Assembly (NCBI GenBank): GCA_963812605.1
Contig: CAWEWF010000006.1
Span: 64,001-128,000, forward strand
Direction: 5' to 3'
Source: an uncultured Verrucomicrobiae bacterium
GTDB taxonomy: Bacteria > Verrucomicrobiota > Verrucomicrobiia > Palsa-1439
Length of the DNA stretch: 64,000 bases
Below the pieces are notes generated by a model. It was not told where the DNA came from and searched no databases. It saw only the letters and a program-made list of their open reading frames with translations. Below are positions 33,776-49,647 of this stretch, in pieces. Numbering within the stretch: the first letter of the stretch is position 1; the number at the start of each line of letters is the position of its first letter. The position numbers and the translations under genes are program-made.

Positions 33776-33920
33776 GCTTCGTGAACAATACCCGATGTCC
33801 CGTGCATGGTCAATGCCGCCCTCAGGGCCAATCGTGCAGAATATTTTCAGTCTGGCTTCATATAGCGGCTGGTAATTCAGCTTGCCGCGCTTGCCAAGCG
33901 CGGCTACAACACGTCGAGAC

Positions 33921-35105
33921 ATGGGAACTCCCGACGAACAATTGGATCTTCTCGCACAGGGTTGCGAGAGCGTCGTCACCCGCGACGAGTTGAAGAAAAA
34001 ACTCGGGTTGGACCGGCCACTCCGCGTCAAACTCGGTTGCGACCCGACCGCACCCGATTTGCATCTCGGCCACAGCGTCGTGTTGCGCAAGCTCCGCCAG
34101 TTTCAAGACCTCGGCCACAAGGCGGTGCTGATCATCGGCGATTACACCGCGCTCGTGGGCGATCCGACCGGCCAGAACAAGACGCGACCTATGCTTAGCG
34201 AAGCCGATATCGACCGCAACGCGAAGACGTATTTCGACCAGGCCGGGAAGATTCTTGATACCGCTCCGGACAAACTGGAAATCCGCCGCAACAGCGAATG
34301 GCTGGCCGGGATGCGTCTGGTCGACGTGCTCAAGCTCATGAGCCAGATGAGCGTGGCGCGCATGCTGGAGCGTGACACCTTTGAGAAACGCTACAAGGCC
34401 GATGTGACCATTGGCCTTCACGAGTTTCTCTACCCGCTCATGCAGGGCCATGATTCGGTCATGGTCAAAGCGGATGTCGAACTAGGTGGGACCGACCAGT
34501 TATTCAATAACCTGGTCGGGCGCGACCTGCAGCGCGATGCGGGCCAGGAGCCCCAAGTCGTCATGATTCTCCCCATTCTCGAAGGACTCGACGGCGTCGA
34601 GAAGATGTCCAAGAGCAAGGGCAACTACATCGGCATCAGCGACACGCCCAAAGATATGTTCGGCAAGACCATGAGCATCGGTGATGAGGCGATGTGGAAG
34701 TGGTACGTGCTTCTCCTCAGCAAGACTCCGGGTGAAATTGCCGACTTGAAAAAGGGTCACCCGATGGAAGCGAAGAAGGCCCTCGCCCACGCCATCGTCG
34801 CGCAATATTACGATGCCACGTCCGCCGACCACGCGCGCGAGGATTTTGAGAAACAGTTTTCAAAAAAAGACCTGTCGGAAATCGCGGAGAAACTCAGTGT
34901 GCCAGCCGGTGAGATTTGGATTGTCGAGTTGGTAGAGAAAACCGGGAAGTTCAAAAGCCGTGGTGACATCCGCCGCATCATCCAACAGGGCGGCGTCACG
35001 TTGGACGGCCAGAAAATCACCGACGACAAGACCAAGGTCAATGTCCGCGATGGGCAGGTCCTCAAAGCCGGCAAGCTGGTCGTCGTCAAGCTGACGGTTG
35101 CCTAA
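33921..35105 (+). CDS. tyrS: Tyrosine--tRNA ligase
   Basis: DPTAPDLHLGH, GGTDQ, KMSKS, C-terminal S4 domain. Confidence 0.97.
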   Translation: MGTPDEQLDLLAQGCESVVTRDELKKKLGLDRPLRVKLGCDPTAPDLHLGHSVVLRKLRQFQDLGHKAVLIIGDYTALVGDPTGQNKTRPMLSEADIDRNAKTYFDQAGKILDTAPDKLEIRRNSEWLAGMRLVDVLKLMSQMSVARMLERDTFEKRYKADVTIGLHEFLYPLMQGHDSVMVKADVELGGTDQLFNNLVGRDLQRDAGQEPQVVMILPILEGLDGVEKMSKSKGNYIGISDTPKDMFGKTMSIGDEAMWKWYVLLLSKTPGEIADLKKGHPMEAKKALAHAIVAQYYDATSADHAREDFEKQFSKKDLSEIAEKLSVPAGEIWIVELVEKTGKFKSRGDIRRIIQQGGVTLDGQKITDDKTKVNVRDGQVLKAGKLVVVKLTVA

Positions 35106-35126
35106 CGCCGCCCTTTCTCGTACACT
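35098..35126 (+). promoter_or_regulatory. Sigma-70-type promoter for tRNA-like unit 1
   Basis: TTGCCT-N17-TACACT, 13 nt upstream of CGGGACG. Confidence 0.7.
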
Positions 35127-35139
35127 CCCTAACTTGGAC

Positions 35140-35198
35140 CGGGACGTAGCTCAGCTTGGATTAGAGCGTCCCGAGCACGAAGTGGCTCGGGAAGGTCG
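35140..35198 (+). ncRNA. tRNA-Pro-derived unit 1 (5' acceptor strand, D arm, replaced anticodon arm; no T arm)
   Basis: CGGGACGTAGCTCAGCTTGGATTAGAGCG TCCCGAGC ACGAAGTG GCTCGGGA AGGTCG. Confidence 0.7.
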
Positions 35199-35225
35199 CC
35201 GGATAGCTTTATATTGTAAAATGTA

Positions 35226-35311
35226 CGGGACGTAGCTCAGCTTGGATTAGAGCGTCCCGAGCATGAGGTGGCTCGGGAAGGTCGGAGGTTCAAATCCTGT
35301 CGTCCCGACCA
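35226..35311 (+). ncRNA. Full-length tRNA-like RNA with an 8-bp/8-nt hairpin in place of the anticodon arm
   Basis: Acceptor CGGGACG/CGTCCCG + ACCA; D arm; TCCCGAGC-ATGAGGTG-GCTCGGGA; T loop TTCAAAT (one G-G mismatch in the T stem). Confidence 0.8.
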
Positions 35312-35320
35312 CTTTTTCCC

Positions 35321-35641
35321 ATGTATTTTGTTTACATTCTCCAGAGCCTGAGCACTGACCGGTTCTACGTTGGTCAGTGCGATCACCTCATTGAGCGATT
35401 CCTTGAGCATCAGCGTGGCGCCAATCTGGCAACTCGCAATCGTGGCCCATGGTGGATGCCCTATTTCGAAATCCATTCCAGTCGCTCCGACGCTCTCAAA
35501 CGCGAACGTCAGATCAAATCCGCAAAGAGCGCGGAAAGCATACGCCGAATCATCAAGAGCGGTACGTCCGAATTGTACGCTTCGGAGCTCAGCTTGGATG
35601 AGAGCATCCCGAGCACATCAATGCTCCGGGAAGGTCGTTGA
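35321..35641 (+). CDS. Small stand-alone GIY-YIG nuclease
   Basis: YFVYIL..FYVG..R..EH..T..RGPW..E..A..RERQIK signature. Confidence 0.92.
   Translation: MYFVYILQSLSTDRFYVGQCDHLIERFLEHQRGANLATRNRGPWWMPYFEIHSSRSDALKRERQIKSAKSAESIRRIIKSGTSELYASELSLDESIPSTSMLREGR
35586..35637 (+). repeat. Degenerate tRNA-like unit 3, encoding the GIY-YIG C-terminal tail
   Basis: AGCTCAGCTTGGATGAGAGCA TCCCGAGCA CATCAA TGCTCCGGGA AGGTCG. Confidence 0.75.
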
Positions 35642-35666
35642 TATCGCCACCCCGTTCGCGTACACT
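35638..35666 (+). promoter_or_regulatory. Sigma-70-type promoter for tRNA-Pro
   Basis: TTGATA-N17-TACACT, exactly 540 bp after the first promoter. Confidence 0.7.
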
Positions 35667-35678
35667 CTTCCCCGGTTC

Positions 35679-35718
35679 CGGGACGTAGCTCAGCTTGGAT
35701 TAGAGCGCCTGCCTTGGG
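35679..35718 (+). tRNA. tRNA-Pro(TGG) 5' half, interrupted in the anticodon loop (probable att site)
   Basis: CGGGACGTAGCTCAGCTTGGATTAGAGCGCCTGCCTTGGG followed by non-tRNA sequence. Confidence 0.8.
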
Positions 35719-35834
35719 CGTCAAGAAAGCACTTTTCTGCTTTTAGCTATCGCTATCTTAGCCAATGTTTACGGCATTTTTCTGATTTCCGCTTTTGCCC
35801 GGTTTAGCCGAAATATGCCCCAAAAGACCAATGG

Positions 35835-35859
35835 AGTATCAAATGGCAGTATCAAATGG
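35835..35859. repeat. Tandem 12-bp direct repeat (possible integrase arm-type sites)
   Basis: AGTATCAAATGG C AGTATCAAATGG. Confidence 0.55.
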
Positions 35860-36087
35860 GCACTTCGATGAAAGCCCCTGCCGTCGGAGAAATTGGCGTC
35901 AATACGATCTGATACAAAGGAACCAAACCGAGTGCGGCGCTCGGAATATTCTTTCGGTCAGATTCAGAATTCCCAAATAACAAAACTCTTTTGCAGGGCC
36001 ATTGGGGTATGGATTCAACACGTCCAATCAGCATTAATGGGCGGAGGTTAAAACCTGCCGCCCACCAATGAAGAATCATAACTCTCG

Positions 36088-36783
36088 TTATGGAAGCAAC
36101 TGACGTTCCAAGGTCATCTGTCCGAATGGAAGAAGAGTGACGTTTGTAGATCCATTTTCAAAGATGACGTTGGCAACGCCAATCAGGTGCGCCTCGCCAG
36201 CAATTTCCTTGTCCTTAACTTTGTCATCCAAGTCTTTGACCGCCGCATCCGCGAAACCTCGGTCGTGTCCACGATCAATATCCACCAGTACCGCTCGCGG
36301 ACAACCATTTGTGGGATTCAGGTAAATCCTTCCAGCAACTGTCAGGAATCCACCCACCAAAAAGCCATTCGTATTAACGCCCATGCGCATGACAAAGCGT
36401 TCGTGGTTCGGACCCAGCGATGAAGCGCTGTCCTGGCCGGTCAAAGCGTAAACATTTGTGCTACTCGCAATGTCCAAGATGTTGCTCGAAAGAGCGGCGT
36501 CGAAGACAACTAATTTCGCCGACGCCGAGTCGCAGCTAATCTCCAAGGCCAATACACGGTTGGTCTGCACTACAGTGGGACTCTCGCCCAAAGCCAGATT
36601 AACCAAGTCATGCCCCGCAAAGGTATCGAACGCGAGCAGATCCGTGTTGGTAGCTACGGGATTTGGCACTTGAAATGCCGCGTTGACTACAGCGGTATCG
36701 CGGAATGTGCCGCCGTTTACCGAAACCGCGAACGCCATTACCACAAAAGCTGCCCCAATTCTTACCCATCCTTGTGCCTTCAT
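36088..36783 (-). CDS. Secreted hypothetical protein
   Basis: Signal peptide MKAQGWVRIGAAFVVMAFAVSVNG; AGGAG RBS. Confidence 0.75.
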   Translation of the reverse strand: MKAQGWVRIGAAFVVMAFAVSVNGGTFRDTAVVNAAFQVPNPVATNTDLLAFDTFAGHDLVNLALGESPTVVQTNRVLALEISCDSASAKLVVFDAALSSNILDIASSTNVYALTGQDSASSLGPNHERFVMRMGVNTNGFLVGGFLTVAGRIYLNPTNGCPRAVLVDIDRGHDRGFADAAVKDLDDKVKDKEIAGEAHLIGVANVIFENGSTNVTLLPFGQMTLERQLLP

Positions 36784-37043
36784 CGATGCATTACTCCTAA
36801 CTCGGTTTGTTTTACAGCCGGGATTGCTGGCCGAGTGCGCAGTCCCAACCACTTTCATAGACCCGTTTATTTAGTATGGGCGGTCCAATTTCCGGACGCT
36901 GATAATGTCTGGCGACGATTGGGCTTACAATCGGCTCTCAACGGAAAAATCCCTAGGATAGTCCCCTATATCGCGTTGCAGCGTGCAAGGGTTGCAGAAC
37001 CCGGCAATTTAATCGTCGATTGATGAAAGACGCGAGCTAGCTG

Positions 37044-37471
37044 CTAGTGTTGGGCGCTTCTTTGACGCCGGATTCTTTGTGTAACTTCCAGCTCCCAACC
37101 GCGACGCACAACGGGACGAAAACGCGACCAAGCATTTTCTTCGCCCGGGTACGCCCTTTCCCAATCTTCCTCCAATTTGGAATCCAGATCGCCGTTCCAA
37201 ACGGAGAACTGTTTCCCGTACCGCAATTGGGCTCCATACCCAAAGCGGTATGCAGGCTCGACTTCCTCAAAGGTAGGAATCTGGCGAGGAGGTATGGGTT
37301 CCTTGCCGGCTGCCTGCTTCAAAGTATCGCTTACTTGCTGATTGGTATCAGGCTCATTACCCCCAAAGTCGTGCTTCGTTTGATCCCAGTCGCGTTGCAC
37401 GGCGGTTTTGACTCGCTCCCAAGCCGTGTCGTTTTCTGGGTCCACCAAACTGGATTCTTGTACTTGCCCAT
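37044..37471 (-). pseudogene. Conserved hypothetical protein, frameshift near the 5' end
   Basis: MGKYKNPVWW in one frame continues as ENDTAWERVK..EPAYRFGYGA in another. Confidence 0.55.
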
Positions 37472-37651
37472 TCTGTTTCGCGCCTCCATGGTAGTCTTTT
37501 GGTTATACTGCGATTGTTCACGAACCTAAACCATGAGACTTGGGAGTTCTATGAGGCTGCGACCCGAATTGCTCATAGGCCGAATTCCTAAAGCTGGCCG
37601 TCAGGCTGGAGCGGCCGTTGACGAACATGCAGTAGCGGTGGAGAATAAGGC

Positions 37652-37888
37652 ATGGAGCCAATTTCAGAAACTTACCGAAATCATCAAATTGAAATCCTAG
37701 ATGAACCTTTCGCCATCGAGACTCTGGCAATGGGGACTCTATCGCCCAACATCGGGCGCAAGGCGGTCATAAAAGTCGACGGCGATGATGTCACCGATAA
37801 ATGTGATTCTGGCGACAAGTCATCGCCTGAATCGATGATTGCCAGCGCACGCCGATATGTCGATCAGAAGTTTTTCTCGAAAACGTAA
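37652..37888 (+). CDS. Small hypothetical protein
   Basis: 78-aa ORF with upstream purine-rich RBS. Confidence 0.55.
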   Translation: MEPISETYRNHQIEILDEPFAIETLAMGTLSPNIGRKAVIKVDGDDVTDKCDSGDKSSPESMIASARRYVDQKFFSKT

Positions 37889-38049
37889 ACACCAATACCC
37901 TCCACCCGCTGCTACCGAGTACAGTTGGTGCCCTAATCTGGCAATTTCGCAACTTGCGTCGGGTTGTATGAGTGAAATAAAATGCCGACGTGGCAAAGGT
38001 CCGTTTCGCTACTTCTCAGACTCAACCGTTCGTTTGAACCCGTGAAAGA

Positions 38050-38556
38050 CTAGTTGGCGATACGCTCCGCTGTGTTCTTAGTCATTACCCGACGGATGAG
38101 CTGCAAGGCTTCTTGGATGCGAAATGATTTGCGGATGTAGCCGTCAATCTGATGGCGGGCGAGGATCGGGCGCAATCGTAGTTCCTCAACGCCTGAAACA
38201 ATAATCACTTTCACGTCTGGACTCAGTTTCTTCAGGCATTCGAAAGTTTTGGATCCGTCAAGCTGCGGCATGTTGTAGTCCAGCAATACCAGGTGGAATT
38301 TGTCCTTCTCACGCGCGAACTTCTCGAGAGCCCTAACGGGATTCGCCTCTGAGATAACTTCGAATCCGAAGGGCTCGAGCAGTTGCGTGATAAGGGTGCG
38401 AAACTCGTCGTTATCGTCAATCGCCATAACTCGGAAGCTGGCGCTGGCCGGCGCAACTGAGTTGACCGCGTCGATGCCCAATTGTACGAGTGTGTCGGCT
38501 TGTTCAGTTGGTGGTAGCATCCAATCCTTTTTTTTGCGCGTATTGACATACAGCAT
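38050..38556 (-). CDS. Stand-alone response regulator receiver
   Basis: AIDD, LLDYNMPQLDG, IIVSG. Confidence 0.85.
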   Translation of the reverse strand: MLYVNTRKKKDWMLPPTEQADTLVQLGIDAVNSVAPASASFRVMAIDDNDEFRTLITQLLEPFGFEVISEANPVRALEKFAREKDKFHLVLLDYNMPQLDGSKTFECLKKLSPDVKVIIVSGVEELRLRPILARHQIDGYIRKSFRIQEALQLIRRVMTKNTAERIAN

Positions 38557-38862
38557 TACGCTTGCCAGCTTGATGGCGAACCGCCTTTCTTCCCTAAATC
38601 AGCAGTATCCGGTGGGCGCGACGACAGTTTCCATTCGCCGGTTGCGAATCTCCTATTCCGGCTTACGTTTCAACGGGGGAGTCGAGACGCTCTCTTTTGG
38701 GTAGGATTATTCAGCCGCATTGGGTCGGCTGGGTTTGCTAAAAGTGGAGCCTCGACTCTCCCTTTTATTTCCGTGGCCCACATCCTTCCCGCCAAAACGG
38801 GCGGATGATCCATTAAGGGTACTATAGCTCTTGCGGTTCGATTTCCACCCCGAGGATTTCAG

Positions 38863-39508
38863 TTAGCGATCCAGGATCTCGCTTATCTTTTTAAGGTCGA
38901 CGATGAACTTTTTAGTTTCGCGCTCTCGTGTCTTTCGGTCAGGAACGCGCAACAACGAAGAGGGGTGCACAGTGGCAAACACAAACGGCGCCAAAGAAGA
39001 TTCGACCAGTTTACCGCGATCTTTCATGACTCGGAAATCTCACCCTAAAAGAGTCTTGGCCGCTGTAGCGCCGAGGCAGACAATGATTCGTGGTTTAACA
39101 AGCGTGATCTCGGCGTCCAGCCAGGGCCGGCACGCTGCGATTTCCGCCGCATTGGGTGTGTCGTGCATGTGGCGCTTGCCTGCTGGTTTCCACTTGAAAT
39201 GCTTTACGACATTGGTCACATAAAGTTTGGAGCGATCAACGCCTGTCGGCCTGAAGAGAACGATCGAGAAGCTGTCCCGCGGTACCCACAAACGGTTTTC
39301 CTTCGATGTCCTCATGAAAACCCGGTTGCTCACCAACCAGCATCACTTTCGCGCTCGGTTTTCCCTCGCCGAAAACCGTTTGCTTTCCAAGCCTCCATAA
39401 ATGACATCCTTTGCACCCTTTGGCTGATTTCTGAAGCGAAGAAAATGTTAGATGGGCGGGAATCAAATCCGCCGCGGAGGCGGAATGTTTCTTTTTATTT
39501 GACTCCAT
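38863..39508 (-). pseudogene. UdgX-type family 4 uracil-DNA glycosylase, disrupted
   Basis: CKGC, GEQPG, TNVVKHFKW..GKRHMH, HPSSLLR; frameshift near 39245 and in-frame TGA at 39040-39042. Confidence 0.85.
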
Positions 39509-39715
39509 ACTTACTGTACTCCACTCTCAATGAGCGCTCATTTATTAGGATTGACGGACTTTTGCCTGGCTTACGAGCGGCCTCTTTTTGGCCACTGGCT
39601 TGTTCTCTGCGGCGACGCTCCCCGGGCCGTTCGCGATTTCTGAGGTTCACGCGGAGAACACTTATTCGGCCGTGTGCTCACAGTTTTTTGTTCCGTCACA
39701 AAGTTTCCTTCTTTC

Positions 39716-40762
39716 TTAACGAGAGTCACCTTTTGGGAATAGCACCTTGTCGGGGTGCGCTCTCAGTTCCACAAGCAATTGTTTGATGAGCTTCGTCTTG
39801 ATCCGACCGGCTTGCTTGGGATGAACGAGATACCGGACTATGGCCTCGACCCAAGTATTGTCGTTGATCCGGAAGAAAGCCGAAGGATGTTCACGCACTT
39901 CAAGTTCGTCCACCGGCGCTTGTGCCAGTAGGTGACGGAATTTATCCACACCCATTTTCATGTCCTCACCGATTTCTCGTTGGACAACTTTTTGCATCGT
40001 AGAAGCGACGAACTCGAAGTCGCTCTGGTAAGCTATCTGGAATTTGATTTCGTTCCAGACATACGGGAATAGTGGCCACGAATAATTGTAAACTGCAGTG
40101 TTGAATACCGACGAATTGGGAAATTGAATAATCCTCCCGCTCGGATGGTCGCTCGATAAATAATCACCACCGAACTCCCAAAGCCGTGTGTCCAAATAGC
40201 CAACTTCGATGACATCCCCGGAGGAGTCGCCAATCTTGATCCTGTCGCCGATTCCGTAAGGGTGACGGATCAAAATATAAATCCAGGCAAAAAAACTGGC
40301 CAGTGGGGACTGAAGAGCGAGTCCCAAGATGAGGGAACCGAGTCCCAGGGAAACCGCTGCAGCGTACCAATGTTGAAAAATCAGGGAAAGCGTGCTGAAA
40401 AGTAAAACAATTCCGGTGACCAGCCACAGGATTCTCTTCAGATTATACCGCGACGCAGCGTCTTCCAAATGCTCAATGGTATATATCTGAATCAAAAATG
40501 CCACGCAGACCGCCGCGGCACAAATAATGGCAGCCGTAACCGCGGACACAACAAGGGGAAAGGATTCTTTTGCGTGTGCGAATAATTGCGATGCCAAGAG
40601 CAAACGTATTACAATTAAAAGAGCGAGAATTGAGGCTGCGATAGCCAGAGACTGATGGTGGTCAACCGACGAATTTGTCAGACCGTCGTGTACGGACCTG
40701 GTCTGGCTTAGCTCGCGTTGTACGTCTTGTGGTTTGGGCTCTTCTGAGTTTTCCTGCTTCAT
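39716..40762 (-). CDS. MscS-family mechanosensitive channel
   Basis: GLALQ..PYGIGDRIKIG..GDVIEVG..FPNS. Confidence 0.88.
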   Translation of the reverse strand: MKQENSEEPKPQDVQRELSQTRSVHDGLTNSSVDHHQSLAIAASILALLIVIRLLLASQLFAHAKESFPLVVSAVTAAIICAAAVCVAFLIQIYTIEHLEDAASRYNLKRILWLVTGIVLLFSTLSLIFQHWYAAAVSLGLGSLILGLALQSPLASFFAWIYILIRHPYGIGDRIKIGDSSGDVIEVGYLDTRLWEFGGDYLSSDHPSGRIIQFPNSSVFNTAVYNYSWPLFPYVWNEIKFQIAYQSDFEFVASTMQKVVQREIGEDMKMGVDKFRHLLAQAPVDELEVREHPSAFFRINDNTWVEAIVRYLVHPKQAGRIKTKLIKQLLVELRAHPDKVLFPKGDSR

Positions 40763-40867
40763 TTGCTCTTGGCCAAATCCCTTTCGGCCGGACATGCCAA
40801 TGAACCTACATAAGATAGGCGACAACATCAATTGGGTCGGATGCGGATTGCTTTCTCGGAAAATGAC

Positions 40868-42157
40868 CTAAAAGGATGTTACCGCAAGGCCTACCGCGGC
40901 TGCGGCCATGACGCCTACTGCTGACCAACCCAAAAGATTCGTCCATGGCCCGTTGGTTTTATCACCCATGATTTTTGGATTATTTGAGATCAGCAAGATC
41001 AGGACGAGCAGCGGCGGAGCGAGAAATCCATTGATGACGGCCGTCCAAAAAAGGGCTTTCATCGGATTGATGCCCAGGAAATTTATAGAGACACCGAGTA
41101 AAGTGCAAACTAGCATCACCGTGTAGAATCGTTTTGCGGCGCCGAGCTTCGCATCAAGGCGGCCGCGCCATCCGAACATAGCGCAAACAGCGTAGGCTAC
41201 CGACCCCGTCAAAATAGGTACTGCCAGACAACCGGCTCCGATCAGACCGACTGCCAACAGAATGTACGCACCCTCGCCCGCCAATGGGCGCAATGCTTGC
41301 GCCGCATCGGTGGCTGATTGAATATCCGTCTTCCCGACTTTGAAAAGTGTGGCGCCGGAGGAAAGAATGATGAAATACATCACGACATTGGAAAAGAGCA
41401 TTCCGGTAATCGTGTCCCAACCAGCTGCCCGTAACTCTCCTTTTGTACTCCCCTTGCGCGCTGCCACTGTCGTTCGTCCTCGTTTAATGTCCTCTTCTAC
41501 TTCCTGATTGCTTTGCCAGAAGAAGAGGTAGGGCGAAATAGTGGTTCCCAAAATGGCAACAAGCGCCGACAGAAATTTCCCGTCGAGACTCAGGCGAGGC
41601 ACAAGAGTCCCGCGTATGACTTCCAGGAAATCAGGTTTGGCAAAGAGAGCAGCCCCAATGTAGGCGAATAGCGCAAGGCTCAACCACTTAAAGACTTGAG
41701 CGATTAAGCGATAAGAACCCCATACTTGAAGTGCCAGTAGAAGTAAGCCTACTGGCAACACCAGAACGCGGATCGGAATCGGTGCCAAAAGATTGATCGC
41801 CGCCGCTATCGCGCCGATGTCAGTTCCCGCGTTGATTGTATTCGCCACGGCTAGCGCGATGATGACCACAAATAGGAGCGAACGCGGATAGTGTTGTTTT
41901 AGTACGCCGGTCAATCCCCGACCAGTGACCATGCCGATTTTACCGCAAATATACTGTACAGCGGTCATTAGGGGAAAAGTGGCTAATGCGGTCCATAGAG
42001 TAGCGTACCCTAGAGAGGCACCCACTTGGGCGTAGGTTGCGATCCCCGAAGGATCATCATCGGACGCTCCAGTCACGAAGCCAGGGCCAAGTGTCTGCAA
42101 AAAGCGAACGAAGGGATTCTTTTTTTCTGCTCGCTCCTGATGCGGTTGTTTCGCCAT
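40868..42157 (-). CDS. NRAMP-like divalent metal transporter
   Basis: LGPGFVTGASDDDPSGIATY, GTTISPYLFFWQ. Confidence 0.9.
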   Translation of the reverse strand: MAKQPHQERAEKKNPFVRFLQTLGPGFVTGASDDDPSGIATYAQVGASLGYATLWTALATFPLMTAVQYICGKIGMVTGRGLTGVLKQHYPRSLLFVVIIALAVANTINAGTDIGAIAAAINLLAPIPIRVLVLPVGLLLLALQVWGSYRLIAQVFKWLSLALFAYIGAALFAKPDFLEVIRGTLVPRLSLDGKFLSALVAILGTTISPYLFFWQSNQEVEEDIKRGRTTVAARKGSTKGELRAAGWDTITGMLFSNVVMYFIILSSGATLFKVGKTDIQSATDAAQALRPLAGEGAYILLAVGLIGAGCLAVPILTGSVAYAVCAMFGWRGRLDAKLGAAKRFYTVMLVCTLLGVSINFLGINPMKALFWTAVINGFLAPPLLVLILLISNNPKIMGDKTNGPWTNLLGWSAVGVMAAAAVGLAVTSF

Positions 42158-42169
42158 AGCCGAGTTTGA

Positions 42170-43060
42170 CTATGCCGCTGTTGTTTCGCCGCCAAGCAGT
42201 GTCAAAACCTCGCCAGTGATGTAGCCGGAGTCCGCCTCGGAGGCAAAGAACACGTAGGCAGGAGCGATTTCTTCCGGCTGCGCTGGGCGACCCAGTGGAG
42301 TATCGGCTCCAAATAGTCGGATCTCCTTTTCGTTTTTTCGTTCGGCAGGGTTAAGCGGCGTCCACACAGGACCCGGTGCGACGCAATTCACTCGAATGCC
42401 GCGTTTAATCAACATTTTCGCCAGGGTCTTCGTGAATGCGTGAATTGCGCCCTTGGTAGAGGAGTAATCAAGGAGGCCCTCGCTGCCTTCCAAGCCAGTG
42501 ATGGAGCCGGTATCGATGATCACCGAACCTTTTTTCAGGTAAGGCAACACCGCTTGGACTATATGGAAATAGCCGTAGATATTTGTGCGGAAAGTCTTGT
42601 CCCACTGTCGCTCAGTGAGCTTTTCGATTTCGTCGCAGTGACATTGAAATGCGGCGTTGTTAACGACGATGTCGAGTTTGCCTAATTGTTCGAGCACCTT
42701 TTTGACGGCGTGCTTGCAGAAACTGGCGGAACGCACGTCCCCGCTAATATCTATCGCGCTACGACCGATGCTACGAACGGTTTCGACAGTAAGGGCCGCA
42801 TCCTTTCGTTCCTGAGGTAAATGCAAAATCGCCACGTCCGCGCCTTCCCGGGCCAAAAGTACTGCTACAGAACGCCCGATGCCGCTATCACCGCCGGTAA
42901 TTAGGGCGACTTTGTCATTCAGTTTGCCGGCCGCGTGATAATGTGACGCGAGAAATTGTGGCGGCGGATTGAGGCGGTACTCCTGTCCAGGAGGGCGCTG
43001 ATTTCGTTGTGATGGAAACGGAGGTTTTGGTTTGACGCTTGTAGAGCTTTTAGCCTTCAT
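42170..43060 (-). CDS. SDR oxidoreductase (YhdF/YghA general-stress type)
   Basis: TGGDSGIGR, NNAAFQ, YSSTKGAI, PGPVWTPL. Confidence 0.92.
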   Translation of the reverse strand: MKAKSSTSVKPKPPFPSQRNQRPPGQEYRLNPPPQFLASHYHAAGKLNDKVALITGGDSGIGRSVAVLLAREGADVAILHLPQERKDAALTVETVRSIGRSAIDISGDVRSASFCKHAVKKVLEQLGKLDIVVNNAAFQCHCDEIEKLTERQWDKTFRTNIYGYFHIVQAVLPYLKKGSVIIDTGSITGLEGSEGLLDYSSTKGAIHAFTKTLAKMLIKRGIRVNCVAPGPVWTPLNPAERKNEKEIRLFGADTPLGRPAQPEEIAPAYVFFASEADSGYITGEVLTLLGGETTAA

Positions 43061-43477
43061 ACTGGACAAAATATATGCCCACCTCCTGTGAAACAATGGG
43101 ACAACGGCTGATTGATGACTCGGAACAAAGCAGAGCGGTCACGGTCCCGTATTCCCTTAATGAGAGGAGGGAAGATGTAAAAGCGATCTGGCTTGGGGGC
43201 CAACTGCGGGGATAGCACACCCCGAGAAACGTGCCCGAACGAAGGGGAATGATTGCGACAATGTGCACAACTCCTATCGTCGCTTCGATTCTCACAACGG
43301 CCTCCATCTCACATCGCGCGAACCTACTGGCTCGGACGGATTCGGGGATCGCCGCCCTCTGCGTCGTGAGCGAAGCAACCTTACGGGTTGCACAAAGACA
43401 AATGGGGAGTATCATCGCAACGTCGAATCGCATAATCAAAGACGTTTTACGGCGCTTCTCGCGAATGGAGACAAACT

Positions 43478-43675
43478 ATGCCGCTGATTAATGTCGTAGT
43501 GACCCTGATTGTGGTCGGAGTCCTGCTCTGGCTTGTTAACAATTACATCCCGATGGATGGCAAAATTAAACAAATTCTTAACGTAGTGGTGGTGATTTGC
43601 GTAGTAGTTTGGCTGCTGTATGCTTTTGGAATTATCAATCACGCCGGGGATATTAAGGTTCCGCAGGTGCATTAA
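43478..43675 (+). CDS. Small membrane protein (Thivi_2564-like)
   Basis: LIVVGVLLWLVNNYIPMDGKIKQILNVVV; GGAG RBS. Confidence 0.8.
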   Translation: MPLINVVVTLIVVGVLLWLVNNYIPMDGKIKQILNVVVVICVVVWLLYAFGIINHAGDIKVPQVH

Positions 43676-43727
43676 GAAAGATTTCTCCATCGCCAGCGGG
43701 AAAATCTCGTTGTTAGAATGCTGCATC

Positions 43728-44187
43728 CTAGACACGGCGGATTCCGGAATTCAGCTTTTGTGCCGGGCCGTCAAGATCTGCCGAGGTTTCGGTGGAATCT
43801 AACCGAACGACCTTCATGCACATACGGGTGATCTCGTTGACAACACGCCGTAAATCCTTCCTCGGAAAGCGCTCCGCGATGAGTACTCGGACGCTGGTCG
43901 TAATGTCCTTGGACATTAACTCCAAGGTCTCCCGCTCGCTGCGCAGGAAATCGCGAAGCACTTGGCGCGGGTTGTCACCTGTGCGCAACACATCTAGGGG
44001 ACCATTGGACCTTGCCGTAGGCCGACGCGACGGGCAAATGATCGAGGACGGCGTATTCCCAACCGTGTTCGCCGACCCGCTTGCACAGCAGCACTTCGCT
44101 CTGGTTCAGATGCATCAACGACATGCACACTTCCCATGGACCGCGATCCCCAATCGAATCGGGTAATTCATAGAGACCAGGCAGCAT
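43728..44187 (-). pseudogene. Hypothetical element gene split into two overlapping ORFs
   Basis: ORFs 43975-44187 and 43728-43991 overlap in different frames downstream of the excisionase-like gene. Confidence 0.35.
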
Positions 44188-44410
44188 TTGGGATTCCAGT
44201 TGGCCGAGATTCTGTGCCGACGTTCTCGAGCTCGCGCAGCTTGTCGCCGATCATACAGAGCGCTTGGTAATCGCCTCTGATTGCCACAAACGCTTCAGAA
44301 TACGCGGCGTATTCCGTGTCGCTCATTCTTTTCAGAGAAGAGCGAGTTAATTCCTTTCGCCCCTGGCCATTTCTTTTGATCACGCGTCTCCTTTCCGTCC
44401 GCTCATTCAA
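44168..44410 (-). CDS. Hypothetical protein coupled to the excisionase-like gene
   Basis: Start overlaps the stop of the upstream gene. Confidence 0.5.
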   Translation of the reverse strand: MNERTERRRVIKRNGQGRKELTRSSLKRMSDTEYAAYSEAFVAIRGDYQALCMIGDKLRELENVGTESRPTGIPNAAWSL

Positions 44411-44633
44411 CCTTCAAGAGCTTGAGCAGTTCCGAGCGAGGAATGAGCAGTTTGCCACGCAATACCCGGCAAGCGCGGAGCTTCCCGCGCTGTATCATCC
44501 GATAGACGCTAAAGTAGTGGACACCCAAAAGTTGCGCAGATTCCTCAACGGAGTAGGCAAGGCGTTCTGAATCCGGCCGTGCGGGTGCCTGTGACGGAGT
44601 ATTCATTGCTCCATTGTTTCCTGACATGGACAC
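44403..44633 (-). CDS. Excisionase-like HTH_17 protein
   Basis: RLAYSVEESAQLLGVHYFSVYRMIQRGKL..LLIPRSEL. Confidence 0.88.
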   Translation of the reverse strand: MSMSGNNGAMNTPSQAPARPDSERLAYSVEESAQLLGVHYFSVYRMIQRGKLRACRVLRGKLLIPRSELLKLLKVE

Positions 44634-44691
44634 AGTTTAGAAGAAAACTCACTCTCTCCTTGTTCCCGTTTGGGAACAACTCGCATATGGG

Positions 44692-47600
44692 CTAGGTACA
44701 GCGCGGTTTCCCTGCCCGCATCACTCGCAAGGTAAAACCATTGCCATTCTCGAACGCTTCCACACGCGCTGTGATTTCCAGCACCGGATAGCGCACCGTC
44801 GCCAGCCCGTAACTGCGATAGGTGTCGGCGAACAACTCCGTTTCGACGATCCCTGTCCAGTCCGCGATAGTCATGAACTTCATCAGTTCACCTGTGACCT
44901 GTTGGTGTAGCCGATCCTCGATTATCAATCCGCAACAAGTCACGGTTTCACCGGTGTGCTCCGCCAAATTCGCCACCGCGCAGTAAGTGTCCCAAGCCAC
45001 ATCGGGATGCAATTCCAACGGATGCCCCGAAACCGGAAAATCCAGCAGTTCGGACTCCGCTCGTAATAGGTCCAGATGCGTTGGCTCGCTCAAATCCACC
45101 GGTGGACTGCGCTCGTGGCACGAGTCGTTCAGGAGCCACGCCTGTTCGCCGCAACGATTGCCACCCACGAGATGCTGAATCCCCCAGAACTGCTCGGTGC
45201 GGGATCGGCCAAAACCGTCGAACGCTCCAACCCGCGCCAGCAGCTCCAGTTCCTCACCGCTGGCGCCGACACGCTGACAGAAGTCCTCCAGCGAAACGAA
45301 CTCACCGCGCTCGCGCTGCGCGAGGATGCGCTCCTGTGTCCGTTCGGTTAGCCCTTTCACCCGCACCGCTGGTACCCGGATCTTGCCGCCGCGCACAGCA
45401 AAGCCAGGACCCGGGTCGTTGATCCAGGGGGATAGAAGTGGAATCCGCAAGCGGTGGCATTCGAGGATGTAAACCAAAGGACGGTAGAAGCCTTTGCCAT
45501 TGGTCAGCACAGCCGCCATAAACTCCGCCGGGTAGTAGTGCTTCAGCCAGGCCGCCTGGTACGCCTCGACCCCGTAGGCGGTTGAATGGGCCTTGCAGAA
45601 CGCGTAGCCACTGAAGCCACAAACCAGTTTCCAGACCTCGGCGATCTCTTCCTCGGTCCGACCCAGCCGTTTGGCGCACTCGGCAAACTCGACTCCGATT
45701 CTCTCGACTTCCATCCACTTCTCTTTGCCCAATGCGCGACGCAATACATCGGCCCGTCCCGGCGGCAGTCCCGCGAACGCCTCGCAGATCTGGAGAATGT
45801 GTTCCTCATATACGACCATTCCGTACGTGCTTTTTAGGCATTCCGATAGCGACACATGCGGATAGACGGTTGGTTCCAGCCCCTGATAGCGCCGCGTGAA
45901 GTGCTGTTTCTTATTTTCGTTGGCGGCACCTGGACGGATCACGCTGACGATGGCGATCAGCCCGTCGATCTCGCGCACGTTGCACATCCGGCACAATGAG
46001 AGCATCGCGGGACTCTCAATGTGATGCACCGCCCGTGCGCCGCCGTCTGCGATCATTTCCCATACGGCGGGATCTTCCCACGGCTCAAGACCTCCAAGGT
46101 CGACGGTAATCCCTCGCGAGACCAGCGACTGTCGGGCATCGCGCATCGCGGCGAGTCCACCCTGGGCCAGAATGTCGATCTTGACCAAGCCGATGGCTTC
46201 TACCGCATCCATATCGAAGTGTGTCGTCGGGTAGCCCTTGTTCGACTCGAAACACGGTACCAGATTGGTCATCGGCACGCTCGAAAGCACCAGCCCGCAC
46301 GGGTGCATCTTGGGGTAACGCGGGAAGCCATCGAGGAACTGTGCCATCTGCAACGCTGATTTGTACGGCTCTTCGTTGACCGGCAGATCCCGGACCTCCT
46401 GTGTTTGCGCGACCGCCTCAACGAGATCGTGGGCTGCGGCGTGCGGGATCTTCTCGGTGAACCGCCGCACCTGGTACTCCGACACACCAAGAACTTTGGC
46501 GACCTCAGCGAAGGCGCTGCGGGCTTGGAAAGTCGAGAATCCGCCGACGACCGCCGTGTGCATGGGACCGTAGCGCTCGAAGATCAGATCGACGACATCG
46601 TCCTTCCGGTCGTGGGCAAAATCGAGATCGATGTCCGGCAATTTGTTCAGCGCCATCCGATCCTTGTTAAGGAACCGGCGAAAGTAGAGATCGAAACGGA
46701 TGGGACAGACATCGCTGATCCGCAGGCAATAGCAGACAAGGGAATCCGCCGCGCTTCCGCGTGTAATCCACTCAATGCCACGGCACTGGCATTCCTGCAG
46801 GATGTCCCAGACCACGAGAAAATACTCCTCGTAACCGACCTCAGCGATGATCGCCAGCTCTTCCTCGACCTGCAGCAGTACTTCGGCTTCGCGACCTGAA
46901 TACCTTTGCCGCAGCCCATCAAGCACCAACTTCCGGAGGAACAACCGTGGACTCGTACCATCGGGCGGATTGAAGCAGGGAAAGTGCAGTCGCCCAAAAT
47001 CGAAGTCAAACGAGCAGCGATCGGCGATTTCGATAGTCCGAGCGAGCGTGTCGATGCGACCGTTGTATGCCTCCAGCACGTCGTCAGCCTTGGCGAAGTG
47101 AAAGTCGCCGCCGAGACGCTTGTCAGGATGCGCCTGTCGCAACAACGTCAGGGTCCGGACGCTCTGTACTACATCGTACTTCCAGCGGTCTGCCGGCTCG
47201 GCGTAGTGAATAGCGGGCAAGGCCACATCAGCCGCGTGGTAGAACCGTTGGGGGAAATGTCGCTTGAGTGTCTGATCGGAACCGACCGCGAGCAGGCCAG
47301 TCGTGTCTTGCTTCAGAAGGGTTTCCGGTCGAGTCAGGATCCGGCACAAGTTCCGGTAGCCCGTTGTGTTCTGGACGAAGAGCAGCAACCGCGAGCTTCC
47401 TCGACTCACTTCCGCGCCGATGATCGGTTTGATGCCGGCAGCCCTGGCGGCGGTCGCGAACTCCACAGCTCCGTGAAGATTGCCGATGTCGGTGATGGCA
47501 ACAGCGGGCAGATGACGCTGGACGGCGAGATCAACAATGGCTTGAATCGACAAGGTTGAGTTCAGAAAGGAATAGAAACTGTGGACATTCAGTGGAACAT

Positions 47601-48840: not shown

Positions 48841-48850
48841 CTGCCTTCAG

Positions 48851-48942
48851 TCCGCCCCCTTCGTCGTCCCCGTTATCAGGATGTTGTGGGCCGGTTAAGG
48901 CACGGAGGTAGGGCCGACAACGAGGACGACGGTGAAGGTGGA
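48851..48942 (-). promoter_or_regulatory. Long RNA stem-loop between lexA and the polymerase gene
   Basis: 24 of 27 positions pair on the minus strand, including 4 G-U pairs. Confidence 0.6.
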
Positions 48943-48946
48943 TTGA

Positions 48947-49607: not shown

Positions 49608-49647
49608 GAGTCTCGAATGGACCGGGGGTTGCGACTACAATTAACTT

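What the first reader, a model, noticed from the sequence alone, without database searches (positions are those of the whole stretch)
35098..35718. GIY-YIG nuclease embedded in tRNA-Pro-mimic units with a swapped anticodon arm
Seen: four copies of the tRNA-Pro 5' sequence in about 600 bp. Three (35140, 35226, 35586) have the anticodon arm replaced by a TCCCGAGC-N8-GCTCGGGA-type hairpin with different loop sequences (ACGAAGTG, ATGAGGTG, ACATCAAT). All three continue to AGGTCG. The 35226 copy keeps the T arm, acceptor stem and CCA, so it could be processed like a tRNA but cannot decode normally. The GIY-YIG gene starts 9 nt after that CCA, and its C-terminal tail is translated from the third unit. 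Two canonical promoters (TTGCCT-N17-TACACT, TTGATA-N17-TACACT) lie exactly 540 bp apart and frame the cassette. CGTCCCG right after the D arm can also pair with the 5' CGGGACG, giving an alternative fold. Inference: a nuclease plus tRNA-like RNA/DNA hairpin system, either a selfish element that copies and remodels the host tRNA locus, or decoy/guide RNAs (e.g. anticodon-nuclease-resistant mimics). I know of no described system with this architecture.
Basis: partly seen in the sequence, partly recalled or inferred. Interest (0 to 1): 0.85.

Follow-up and report, generated by a model that had tools for sequence, protein, structure and literature searches.

The report
Hairpin nuclease cassette nested in tRNA copies
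A small nuclease gene sits among broken copies of a proline tRNA gene whose anticodon arm has been replaced by the DNA hairpin that such nucleases bind; the nuclease-hairpin pair was described in 2025, but its habit of living inside tRNA gene copies seems not to have been.

Summary
There are four copies of the tRNA-Pro 5' half in 600 bp, and three carry a TCCCGAGC-loop-GCTCGGGA-type hairpin in place of the anticodon arm. A 106-aa GIY-YIG ORF starts 9 nt after the CCA of the second copy.

The hairpin is not an anticodon mimic. Its core is that of the NTS/SRM hairpins that flank genes of the Ssn family. These are small single-domain GIY-YIG nucleases that bind such hairpins only in single-stranded DNA (Chenal 2025, PMC11893778).

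The architecture is general. Of 80 homologous loci from many phyla, 62 have a same-strand tRNA within 200 nt. Fifty-three have YCCCG..CGGGR hairpins near the gene. The commonest hairpin position replaces tRNA positions 27-43 exactly.

Within this genus, empty sites (4 of 18 genomes) and occupied sites (6 of 18) show a roughly 350-bp cassette as an insertion polymorphism after tRNA-Pro(TGG).

The window's version is rearranged. Relatives have a true tRNA-Pro where unit B lies. The fourth copy is the left stump of the real tRNA-Pro, which is split by a 67-kb integrase-type island.

Decoy or guide RNA is unlikely. The link between tRNA genes and these cassettes was not found in print.

Verdict: a new variant of a known kind.

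The parts
33882..35105 (+). tyrS (tyrosyl-tRNA synthetase). Upstream neighbour and synteny anchor.
   Evidence: Pfam tRNA-synt_1b 239.5 bits and S4. The same neighbour lies before tRNA-Pro in L010, L012, L013 and L120.
35098..35126 (+). Promoter-like site P1 (TTGCCT-17-TACACT). Left copy of the 540-bp-spaced repeat.
   Evidence: Sequence. Repeat family D3, 35111-35127 / 35651-35667. Below the threshold of the promoter scan.
35140..35198 (+). Unit A: tRNA-Pro positions 1-29, hairpin 35169-35192 (8-bp stem, 8-nt loop), then AGGTCG. No T arm and no 3' acceptor strand.
   Evidence: the hairpin dominates the ssDNA fold. The same unit is at the same place in L013.
35226..35311 (+). Unit B: full-length pseudo-tRNA-Pro. 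The anticodon arm is replaced by hairpin 35255-35278. The T arm has one mismatch. The acceptor and CCA are kept.
   Evidence: Rfam tRNA 42.2 bits with a 14-nt insert. Not called by ARAGORN. Orthologous loci have a true tRNA-Pro(TGG) here.
35321..35641 (+). Small single-domain GIY-YIG nuclease gene (106 aa; orthologues 86-88 aa), Ssn-like.
   Evidence: Pfam PF01541 43.5 bits. Invariant Y16, G18, R26, H30 and E62 in 14 homologues. dN/dS 0.08-0.12 against four orthologues. Nearest solved structures are UPF0213 1ZG2/1YWL and Slx1.
35578..35637 (+). Unit C: degenerate tRNA-Pro 5' half, imperfect hairpin 35607-35631, then AGGTCG. It lies inside the 3' end of the ORF.
   Evidence: weak fold, z -1.1.
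35638..35666 (+). Promoter-like site P2 (TTGATA-17-TACACT). Probably the native promoter of the real tRNA-Pro.
   Evidence: 9 of 12 matches. (repeat D3).
35679..35719 (+). Unit D: the first 41 nt of the real tRNA-Pro(TGG), ending after the anticodon loop. Left junction of the island.
   Evidence: Identical by eye to the first 41 nt of the intact tRNA at C6:166888-166966. The same junction is present in G008 (L120).
35720..64000 (.). Left part of a ~67-kb inserted island. It runs on to C6:166887, beyond the window.
   Evidence: tyrS and the CBS gene are ~0.9 kb apart in G011/G010 but 68.8 kb apart here. An integrase-like ORF lies 52 nt from the intact tRNA (PF00589 24.8 bits, below the cut-off of 27.1).
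35835..35859 (+). Two copies of AGTATCAAATGG just inside the island. A further copy lies near its other end. Possibly recombinase arm sites.
   Evidence: (family D4). Also present in G008.

Best explanation
The locus holds an Ssn-type cassette: a small single-domain GIY-YIG nuclease gene together with its cognate hairpin motifs. This cassette has colonised the tRNA-Pro(TGG) gene.

The 'tRNA mimics' are duplicated pieces of the tRNA gene that flank the nuclease gene. In them, the nuclease's own hairpin (base TCCCG...CGGGA, with a variable upper stem and loop) sits exactly where the anticodon arm was.

By analogy with Neisseria SsnA, the protein would bind this hairpin when the DNA is single-stranded and cut a few nucleotides upstream. 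Single strands arise during replication, transformation and conjugation. Breaks next to short tRNA repeats would then be repaired by recombination with the neighbouring tRNA copies. That would account for the tandem units, the concerted evolution of true and pseudo copies, the gain and loss of the cassette, and its persistence at a highly conserved, safe site.

The gene is probably transcribed with the tRNA unit from the tRNA promoter.

The window shows a rearranged state:
- Unit B is a recombinant, made of a tRNA 5' half, the hairpin and a tRNA 3' part.
- Units A and C are truncated copies.
- Unit D is the stump of the real tRNA. It was cut by an unrelated integrase-type 67-kb island that restored an intact tRNA-Pro at its far end.

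Shown: the anatomy, the generality across phyla, the insertion polymorphism, and purifying selection on the gene. Inferred: ssDNA binding and cleavage at the hairpin, co-transcription, and the recombination mechanism.
For: 1. Protein. It is a GIY-YIG domain only. Catalytic-type residues are invariant in 14 homologues, at Y5, Y16 and E62. The paper's mutated residues are Y6, Y17 and E64 in the 94-aa SsnA. dN/dS is 0.08-0.15 among divergent orthologues.

2. Hairpin. The core TCCCG..CGGGA equals the core of the NTS, quoted in PMC11893778 as CGTCATTCCCGCGMAVGCGGGAATCYRG. The paper reports hairpins flanking ssn genes on both sides. Here they lie on both sides of the ORF (units A and B upstream, unit C downstream).

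3. Generality.
- 26 of 28 loci from relatives (L008-L035) have a same-strand tRNA beside the gene.
- 62 of 80 loci from many phyla have a tRNA within 200 nt, and all of these are on the gene's strand.
- By my arithmetic from 65 tRNA genes in 4.17 Mb, chance would give about 0.6%.
- 53 of 80 loci have at least one YCCCG..CGGGR hairpin with a stem of 6 bp or more within 450 nt of the gene.
- Hairpin density is 1.16/kb near the gene against 0.11/kb further away. The backwards control gives 0.

4. Position in the tRNA copy.
- Of 114 hairpins in the 80 loci, 73 have a flank matching a tRNA of that locus.
- 35 of them (15 with both flanks mapped, 20 with one) sit exactly at the boundaries of positions 26|44, in 19 loci.
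- The backwards-flank control gives 4.
- 95 of 114 stems are 7 bp or longer, and there are 81 distinct hairpin sequences.

5. The same hairpin base occurs beside Ala, Gly, Gln, Ser, Asp and Met tRNAs in Bacteroidota, Gammaproteobacteria and Patescibacteria. It is therefore not derived from the tRNA-Pro acceptor stem.

6. Insertion polymorphism in the genus.
- 6 of 18 genomes carry the cassette between tRNA-Pro and the CBS gene.
- 4 of 18 have the tRNA about 80 nt before CBS with no gene and no hairpin.
- G014 keeps what looks by eye like a decayed ORF start.
- G009 keeps hairpin units without a gene.

7. The own genome has 7 small GIY-YIG matches, and 5 lie beside a tRNA or a tRNA fragment. 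One paralogue's hairpin, an 18-nt palindrome, has 14 exact copies dispersed in the genome. This resembles NTS in Neisseria.
Against: 1. The paper's own degenerate SRM search sequence matches 0 of the 80 loci. It matches none of the window's hairpins; its single window hit, at 51705, is unrelated. In the whole genome it gives 31 hits against 18 in the backwards control. The flanks here come from the tRNA and differ from NTS flanks, so by that published criterion these are not SRMs.

2. Membership of cd10448, and homology to Neisseria SsnA at the paper's threshold, could not be tested. The nearest solved structures are UPF0213 proteins, which may be a sister group.

3. No biochemical data exist for this protein. 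ssDNA specificity is extrapolated from four tested homologues in Proteobacteria.

4. GIY-YIG enzymes only cut. Nothing here shows how an arm is replaced so precisely or how the cassette moves.

5. 27 of the 80 loci show no such hairpin, and 18 of 80 have no tRNA within 200 nt.

6. The TCCCGAGC type has only three perfect copies plus one imperfect, all at this tRNA locus. It is not a dispersed repeat.
Confidence: 0.68

Rival explanations
1. The units are tRNA-like RNAs with a function of their own. They could be decoys for anticodon nucleases, guides for the nuclease, or processing or stabilising signals for the mRNA. In this view the hairpin is an RNA structure.
For: - Unit B passes the Rfam tRNA threshold (42.2 bits) and keeps the acceptor stem and CCA.
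- The ORF starts 9-10 nt after a tRNA 3' end in all Pro(TGG) orthologues. The transcript must therefore be processed at a tRNA.
- The adjacent tRNA is always on the gene's strand: 62 of 62 adjacent cases.
Against: - In L008-L012 the upstream unit is a normal tRNA-Pro, and the hairpin-bearing downstream unit has a non-pairing 5' acceptor strand.
- Pseudo-copies across phyla usually lack positions 1-12 or the 3' acceptor strand.
- Units A and C lack a T arm, and unit B has a T-stem mismatch.
- Neisseria SsnA did not interact with RNA (PMC11893778, section 8).
- There is no hit to known defence families (PADLOC, 0 of 3 proteins).
Confidence: 0.08
2. The gene is a classical free-standing homing endonuclease (like phage T4 SegB) that cuts double-stranded tRNA-gene DNA in genomes lacking it and is copied in by repair. 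The tRNA duplications are co-converted flanks, and the hairpins make the resident copy immune.
For: - Empty and occupied sites exist at the same tRNA within a genus.
- The cassette is flanked by tRNA homology.
- SegB is a GIY-YIG homing enzyme in a tRNA cluster (PMC2330249; abstract seen).
- There is a weak, sub-threshold likeness to group I intron endonucleases (TIGR01453, 18.8-21.2 bits against a cut-off of 56).
Against: - The protein is the bare catalytic domain (76-106 aa), without the DNA-binding domain that gives homing enzymes their long sites.
- An intact, presumably cleavable tRNA copy stays next to the gene.
- The hairpin base is conserved across phyla and tRNA isotypes. This fits a recognition motif better than immunity mutations.
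- The same hairpins also occur dispersed away from tRNAs.
Confidence: 0.12
3. A passive neighbourhood. The small GIY-YIG is a housekeeping repair nuclease (UPF0213/Slx1-like) that merely uses tRNA promoters. The hairpins are ordinary REP or terminator elements that accumulate in tRNA-flanking repeats for unrelated reasons.
For: - The nearest solved relatives are UPF0213 proteins and Slx1.
- The published SRM pattern does not match.
- REP-like copies of similar hairpins are dispersed in the genome.
Against: - The gene is patchy: 21 of 41 related genomes have a match, with several divergent copies per genome at different tRNAs.
- It is polymorphic within a genus.
- Hairpin density is ten times higher within 450 nt of the gene than in the rest of the same loci.
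- Different gene copies carry different hairpin variants.
Confidence: 0.1
4. The repeated units are an assembly artefact of a metagenome-assembled genome.
For: - The genome is a 15-contig MAG, 90% complete.
- No listed public contig bridges the junction between unit A and unit B.
Against: - Contigs from two runs match without differences across unit B into the ORF, and across the ORF into unit C. They may come from the source sample.
- Unit A and the hairpin units recur at the same locus in other genomes (L013, L009).
- The architecture recurs in 80 independent records.
Confidence: 0.02

Closest known systems
Ssn nucleases with NTS/SRM hairpin repeats (Chenal et al. 2025, Nat Commun, PMC11893778; outline, sections 8, 10 and 17, and passages read)
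   Same: - A small single-domain GIY-YIG protein (94 aa in Neisseria; 76-106 aa here).
- Catalytic Tyr/Tyr/Glu at matching positions.
- The gene is flanked on both sides by hairpin repeats with the core TCCCG..CGGGA.
- The hairpin variant differs between paralogues.
- Some variants are dispersed in the genome.
- The authors themselves call the repeat-gene-repeat layout IS-like.
   Different: - Here the hairpins lie inside duplicated tRNA gene pieces, mostly in place of the anticodon arm.
- Their flanks come from the tRNA rather than the CGTCAT / ATCYRG flanks of NTS.
- The published SRM pattern matches 0 of 80 loci.
- The word tRNA does not occur in the paper's main text. Its supplements could not be seen.
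- cd10448 membership is untested.
CGTC-tagged palindromic repeats, including Neisseria dRS3 (Di Nocera et al. 2013, PMC3733652; passages read)
   Same: - Short palindromic repeats with a conserved head next to the stem.
- In many units here the tRNA's last two bases before the arm plus the hairpin's first two read CGTC.
- Found in several phyla, including relatives of this one.
   Different: That paper describes dispersed intergenic or intragenic repeats without a dedicated enzyme. It reports no placement inside tRNA gene copies. Its four mentions of tRNA concern protein genes.
REP elements with RAYT transposases, and IS200/IS605
   Same: An enzyme gene flanked by the hairpins it recognises in single-stranded DNA, plus non-autonomous copies elsewhere. 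This comparison is made by the Ssn authors.
   Different: Those enzymes are HUH tyrosine transposases that cut and rejoin DNA. A GIY-YIG domain only cuts. No transposase-like protein is present here.
Phage T4 SegB, a GIY-YIG homing endonuclease in a tRNA gene cluster (PMC2330249; abstract only)
   Same: A GIY-YIG nuclease gene lodged among tRNA genes and inherited together with them.
   Different: SegB is a larger dsDNA site-specific enzyme of a phage. It has no cognate hairpins and no pseudo-tRNA copies with swapped arms.
UPF0213 proteins (PDB 1ZG2, 1YWL) and the Slx1 nuclease domain
   Same: The closest solved sequences to a profile of 14 of these proteins. E-values are 1.3e-15 and 4e-14 for the UPF0213 proteins, and 7e-10 for Slx1.
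   Different: UPF0213 proteins have no described function or hairpin partner. Slx1 works with Slx4 on branched DNA and has an extra zinc-finger domain.
Integrase-type genomic islands in tRNA genes (relevant to unit D only)
   Same: - A direct repeat of part of the tRNA at both ends.
- A tyrosine-recombinase-like ORF beside the tRNA.
- The same junction in a second genome.
   Different: The repeat is the 5' part of the tRNA up to the anticodon loop, so the intact gene lies at the far end and the stump keeps the old promoter. From general knowledge, the 3' part is the usual target.

Membership tests
Ssn family (PMC11893778) | Single-domain GIY-YIG protein of about 90-100 aa | tested here: met
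   Pfam GIY-YIG covers residues 1-71 of 106 and is the only family hit. Homologues are mostly 76-102 aa, with a few shorter truncated forms and one of 119 aa.
Ssn family (PMC11893778) | Conserved catalytic Tyr, Tyr and Glu (Y6, Y17, E64 in Neisseria SsnA) | tested here: met
   Y16, R26, H30 and E62 are invariant in 14 homologues, and Y5 is present in the window protein.
Ssn family (PMC11893778) | Assignment to CDD cd10448, or tblastn E < 1e-10 to N. meningitidis SsnA | not testable with these tools
   There is no CDD library and no named Neisseria sequence on hand. The control genomes do not include Neisseria.
Ssn family (PMC11893778) | Gene flanked by hairpin-forming inverted repeats on both sides | tested here: met
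   Hairpins lie at 35169-92 and 35255-78 (upstream) and 35607-31 (downstream). 53 of 80 homologous loci have such hairpins within 450 nt.
Ssn family (PMC11893778) | Repeats match the published degenerate SRM search sequence | tested here: not met
   0 of 80 loci match, and none of the window's hairpins do. The genome gives 31 hits against 18 in the backwards control. The core is shared but the flanks and stem details differ.
Ssn family (PMC11893778) | Binds and cuts only single-stranded DNA near the hairpin | not testable with these tools
   This needs the purified protein and oligonucleotides.
tRNA (Rfam RF00005), for unit B | Cloverleaf scoring above the gathering threshold | tested here: met
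   42.2 bits against 29.
tRNA (Rfam RF00005), for unit B | 5-bp anticodon stem with a 7-nt loop carrying an anticodon | tested here: not met
   Unit B has an 8-bp stem with an 8-nt loop, which Infernal reads as a 14-nt insert. ARAGORN makes no call.
Free-standing GIY-YIG homing endonuclease | Catalytic domain joined to a DNA-binding domain that reads a long dsDNA site | tested here: not met
   There is no second domain. TIGR01453 scores only 18.8 bits against a cut-off of 56.
Known anti-phage defence proteins (PADLOC) | Match to a defence-system model | tested here: not met
   0 families for 3 proteins. PHROGs also gives 0.
tRNA-targeting integrative island (unit D) | Direct repeat of a tRNA segment at both ends, plus a tyrosine recombinase | tested here: inconclusive
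   The 41-nt repeat and the synteny break are clear. The recombinase hit is below Pfam's cut-off (24.8 against 27.1 bits).

The most novel reading that the evidence does not exclude
Small Ssn-like nuclease cassettes form a cross-phylum class of mobile elements that use tRNA genes as their home. They duplicate the tRNA gene and actively substitute one of its arms (usually the anticodon arm, sometimes the T arm) with the nuclease's own hairpin.

In this reading the nuclease recognises the cloverleaf arms that a tRNA gene forms as single-stranded DNA. tRNA genes would then be the ancestral target, and perhaps the birthplace, of the TCCCG-type palindromic repeats found dispersed in many bacteria.
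Probability: 0.35. Interest if true: 0.8.

Novelty: new variant of a known kind. Interest (0 to 1): 0.62.

Why it matters
The Ssn nucleases were described only in 2025, and how their gene-plus-hairpin modules spread is open. This finding suggests a concrete, testable answer.

In at least six phyla, genes of this kind sit directly beside tRNA genes. They lie between a true tRNA copy and a pseudo copy, and their hairpin takes the place of a tRNA arm.

That points to three things:
- tRNA genes as the landing site, or as universal homology arms, of the cassette.
- A source for a widespread class of palindromic repeats that had no known enzyme.
- An explanation for many odd 'pseudo-tRNA' and truncated-tRNA calls next to small GIY-YIG genes in genome annotation.

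It also gives ready-made natural substrates for defining new ssDNA cleavage specificities: the hairpin with its tRNA flanks.

Tried and rejected
- A census of hairpins defined by 5- or 6-mers was swamped by chance matches.
- A search for 20-nt tRNA end copies with up to 3 mismatches in the own genome found only 3 tRNAs. It missed the shorter repeats later seen by eye.
- Hypothesis rejected: that the hairpin stem is copied from the tRNA-Pro acceptor stem (CGGGA/TCCCG). The same base occurs beside other isotypes and phyla.
- NCBIfam gave only a sub-threshold TIGR01453 match. PADLOC and PHROGs gave nothing.
- tblastn of the protein against 72,556 plasmids found no match, so no named canonical Ssn locus could be reached that way.
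- The control genomes of the genome search hold no Neisseria.

Sequencing runs:
- No run held more than 0.29 of the sampled words.
- The two RNA runs covered only the T arm and acceptor part, which is shared with tRNA-Pro of other organisms. They also covered the island junction at 90-95% likeness.
- This says nothing about expression. No contig listed bridges units A and B.

Literature:
- Searches found no description of small GIY-YIG genes beside tRNA genes or of hairpins replacing tRNA arms.
- The library lacks most subscription journals, and the supplements of PMC11893778 could not be seen.

Not attempted:
- A statement that proteins beside the same isoacceptor are each other's closest relatives rests only on reading the translations beside the tRNA calls.
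- I did not predict a structure or a complex. Pfam and PDB matches made the fold clear, and no protein partner is claimed.

Full report
**What is there.**

The window is G000:C6:64001-128000 of a 4.17-Mb, 15-contig genome. The closest public records are Verrucomicrobiia MAGs.

Downstream of tyrS (33882-35105) lie, on the + strand:
- A promoter-like site.
- Unit A (35140-35198).
- Unit B (35226-35311).
- A 106-aa ORF (35321-35641).
- Unit C (35578-35637, inside the ORF's 3' end).
- A second promoter-like site (35638-35666).
- Unit D (35679-35719).

Units A and B consist of the first 29 nt of tRNA-Pro, an 8-bp/8-nt hairpin of the TCCCGAGC...GCTCGGGA type, and AGGTCG. Unit B goes on through a T arm, the 3' acceptor strand and CCA. 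Unit C is a degenerate copy with an imperfect hairpin.

The exact hairpin pattern occurs nowhere else in the genome, and the control gives 0. Rfam's tRNA model matches only unit B (42.2 bits, with a 14-nt insert in the anticodon loop). ARAGORN calls no tRNA here.

**Unit D and the island.**

Unit D is the real tRNA-Pro(TGG) sequence, broken off right after the anticodon loop. The intact gene lies 67 kb further on, at C6:166888-166966. It is followed by a fifth, 5'-truncated hairpin unit.

In two relatives (G011, G010), tyrS, tRNA-Pro, the nuclease gene, a hairpin unit and a CBS-domain gene lie within about 0.9 kb. Here tyrS and that CBS gene are 68.8 kb apart.

An ORF with a weak tyrosine-recombinase match abuts the intact tRNA (24.8 bits, below Pfam's cut-off of 27.1). 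The same left junction, including a doubled 12-nt repeat just inside, is present in another genome of the genus that has no nuclease gene there (G008, L120).

So the fourth copy is the stump left by an integrative island, not part of the nuclease system.

**What relatives show.**

The protein has homologues in 21 of 41 related genomes, counting this one.

In 26 of the 28 loci fetched from other genomes, a tRNA gene lies directly beside the ORF on the same strand. The isotypes are Pro, Thr, Met, Gly, Ser, Arg, Gln and Ala.

The five orthologous loci L008-L012 (64-80% identity) have a normal tRNA-Pro(TGG) exactly where unit B is, with the ATG 9-10 nt after the CCA. After the ORF they have a pseudo-copy with these features:
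- The 5' acceptor strand no longer pairs.
- The anticodon arm is replaced by a TCCCGAG...CTCGGGA hairpin with a different loop.
- The T arm and 3' acceptor strand are identical to the true tRNA. In L008 the T arm is itself replaced by a second hairpin.

A sixth locus, L013 from G012, has unit A, a true tRNA, a hairpin unit and a truncated gene. Unit A there has the same loop as in the window.

Unit B is therefore a recent recombinant, not a conserved RNA gene.

**Empty and occupied sites.**

All 18 genomes of the genus have the CBS gene. Upstream of it:
- 6 carry the cassette (one of them truncated).
- 4 have tRNA-Pro about 80 nt before the gene, with neither nuclease nor hairpin.
- 3 have another insert.
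- 4 have no tRNA within 1.5 kb.
- The own genome has the tRNA plus a hairpin unit.

Aligning an empty site with an occupied one shows an extra ~350 bp. It consists of about 9 nt, the ORF, a degenerate tRNA 5' part, the hairpin, and a second copy of the tRNA's last 33 nt.

G014 keeps what looks by eye like the decayed start of the ORF. G009 keeps hairpin units without a gene. The cassette is gained, lost and decays, as a mobile or selfish element would.

The gene itself is under purifying selection (dN/dS 0.08-0.15 among divergent orthologues). dS is near saturation, so these figures are rough.

**Across phyla.**

A scan of one genome per species found 201 relatives, and the best 80 were fetched. 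They come from Verrucomicrobiota, Kiritimatiellae, Bacteroidota, Gammaproteobacteria, Ignavibacteria, Patescibacteria and others.

- 62 of 80 have a tRNA within 200 nt of the ORF. Every one of those is on the ORF's strand. The few opposite-strand tRNAs are 299 nt or more away.
- From 65 tRNA genes in 4.17 Mb, I estimate about 0.6% by chance.
- 64 of 80 loci hold extra copies of 11 nt or more of a tRNA of the locus. This is an upper bound, because some matches are T-loop words shared between different tRNAs.
- The typical pattern is that tRNA positions 1-26 and/or 44-76 are kept, and 27-43 are replaced.

The replacing sequence is a hairpin with the same base in all these phyla: TCCCG...CGGGA or CCCCG...CGGGG. 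The upper stems and loops vary (16 cases printed).

Counted over the 80 loci:
- 53 have such a hairpin (perfect stem of 6 bp or more) within 450 nt of the ORF.
- That is 99 hairpins in 85 kb near the gene, against 15 in 141 kb further away. The same regions read backwards give none.
- Of all 114 hairpins, 73 have a 12-nt flank that matches a tRNA of the locus. Backwards flanks give 4.
- 35 sit exactly at the boundaries of the anticodon arm.
- Other recurrent places are the T arm and the 5' side of the anticodon arm.
- 95 of 114 stems are longer than the 6 bp demanded, and 81 sequences are distinct.

The structure is therefore maintained while the sequence above the base changes.

**What it is.**

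A literature search led to Chenal et al. 2025 (PMC11893778). That paper makes these points:
- Small single-domain GIY-YIG proteins of CDD family cd10448, named Ssn, are site-specific nucleases of single-stranded DNA.
- N. meningitidis SsnA (94 aa) binds the NTS repeat, a hairpin whose quoted consensus contains TCCCGCG...GCGGGA. It binds only as ssDNA, not as dsDNA or RNA, and cuts a few nt upstream (section 8).
- Homologues across phyla are flanked by related hairpins, called SRMs. 71% have at least one and 42% have them on both sides (passages).
- Each tested homologue cut near its own repeat as ssDNA, with some cross-specificity among them (section 10).
- The authors note that repeat-gene-repeat looks like an insertion sequence.

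Earlier, Di Nocera et al. 2013 (PMC3733652) had grouped such repeats, including Neisseria dRS3, as CGTC-tagged REPs without a dedicated enzyme.

The window's gene and hairpins fit this picture in several ways:
- Protein size and domain content.
- Catalytic residues.
- Hairpin core.
- Hairpins on both sides of the gene.
- Different hairpin variants for different paralogues in one genome.
- For one paralogue, 14 exact dispersed copies of its 18-nt palindrome.

**What does not fit, and what could not be tested.**

- The paper's degenerate SRM search sequence (section 17) matches none of the 80 loci and none of the window's hairpins. The flanks here are tRNA sequence, and several stem positions fall outside that pattern.
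- I could not test cd10448 membership or similarity to SsnA itself.
- The nearest solved structures are UPF0213 proteins and Slx1.

I therefore file the system as working like Ssn/SRM and probably belonging to that family or a sister group, not as a proven member.

**How it probably works.**

Shown:
- The cassette's anatomy.
- Its strict co-orientation with, and abutment to, tRNA genes.
- The arm-for-hairpin substitution.
- The polymorphism.
- Selection on the protein.

Inferred:
- The protein binds its hairpin in ssDNA and nicks just upstream, which in these units is the D-arm part of the tRNA copy.
- Such breaks, flanked by 26-33-nt tRNA repeats, are repaired by recombination with the neighbouring copies.
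- That would give tandem arrays (units A and B here, and 7-9 units in L048), identical T-arm segments in true and pseudo copies within each genome, and loss or gain of the cassette.
- Because tRNA genes are nearly identical between related species, a cassette bracketed by tRNA sequence could also enter an empty site by homologous recombination of incoming single strands.
- Replacing the arm breaks the repeat into short blocks, which would slow deletion of the gene.
- Transcription from the tRNA promoter, with tRNA 3' processing, would deliver an mRNA with a 9-nt leader.

None of these steps is demonstrated. How the arm is replaced so exactly remains unexplained.

**Rivals.**

- A classical dsDNA homing endonuclease is possible. 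It is disfavoured by the lack of a DNA-binding domain and by the conserved hairpin.
- A passive neighbourhood of a housekeeping nuclease is disfavoured by the patchy, polymorphic distribution and the tenfold local enrichment of hairpins.
- An assembly artefact is very unlikely.

**Novelty.**

Seven full-text searches found no paper that links small GIY-YIG genes, or these repeats, to tRNA genes or to replaced tRNA arms. The Ssn paper's main text does not contain the word tRNA. Subscription journals are mostly outside the library.

On this basis the nuclease-hairpin pair is known. Its nesting in tRNA gene copies is a new variant that I could document in many phyla.

Noticed in passing
window 35720-64000, continuing to G000:C6:166887 (L123 up to 9888): A ~67-kb island inserted in tRNA-Pro(TGG). 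Both ends carry a 41-nt direct repeat of the tRNA's 5' part. An integrase-like ORF (below Pfam's cut-off) lies 52 nt from the intact tRNA. Cargo in the window includes Nramp, SDR, MscS-like and response-regulator genes. The same left junction occurs in another genome of the genus (L120).
   Followed up: partly
window 35835-35859 and G000:C6:~166823: AGTATCAAATGG is doubled just inside the island's left end and occurs once near its right end. It is also doubled in G008. These may be recombinase arm sites.
   Followed up: no
window 33274-33291 and 13 other places in G000: The 18-nt palindrome CCCCGAAAGCTTTCGGGG has 14 exact copies in the genome, and 9 share the same flanks (REP-like). One copy replaces the anticodon arm in the pseudo-tRNA after the paralogous GIY-YIG gene at C14:406259.
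   Followed up: partly
G000:C14:406145-406580 (L004): A paralogous cassette: intact tRNA-Pro(CGG), a GIY-YIG gene, then a pseudo-copy in which both the anticodon arm and the T arm are replaced by hairpins. It is followed by a repeat of the acceptor 3' strand plus 17 nt of downstream flank.
   Followed up: partly
G000:C7:23770-24090: tRNA-Gly(CCC) is flanked on both sides by hairpin-bearing pseudo-tRNA-Gly units, without any GIY-YIG gene. Relatives have such a gene at this tRNA (L014, L028). These are possibly non-autonomous relics.
   Followed up: no
G000:C14:750058-756692: An array of about 20 tRNA genes within 6.6 kb, duplicating many isotypes found elsewhere in the genome.
   Followed up: no
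G000:C1:366126, C6:257073, C6:322950, C12:11: A repeated unit made of two TCCCG-type hairpins back to back, once at a contig end. This may be the end of a repeated element.
   Followed up: no
G000:C14:714385-714489: A partial GIY-YIG match (first 34 profile positions) 124 nt after tRNA-Val(GAC). This looks like a truncated further cassette.
   Followed up: no
L048 844-1373 (Chitinophagaceae MAG): Seven tandem 83-nt units before the true tRNA-Ser(GGA) and the GIY-YIG gene. Each holds tRNA-Ser positions 1-27, a TCCCGAT...ATCGGGA hairpin and positions 36-51. Two more units lie downstream.
   Followed up: partly
G000:C7:53509-53587: ARAGORN reports a tRNA with an undetermined two-base anticodon. 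A CCCCGAA-type hairpin lies about 110 nt upstream.
   Followed up: no
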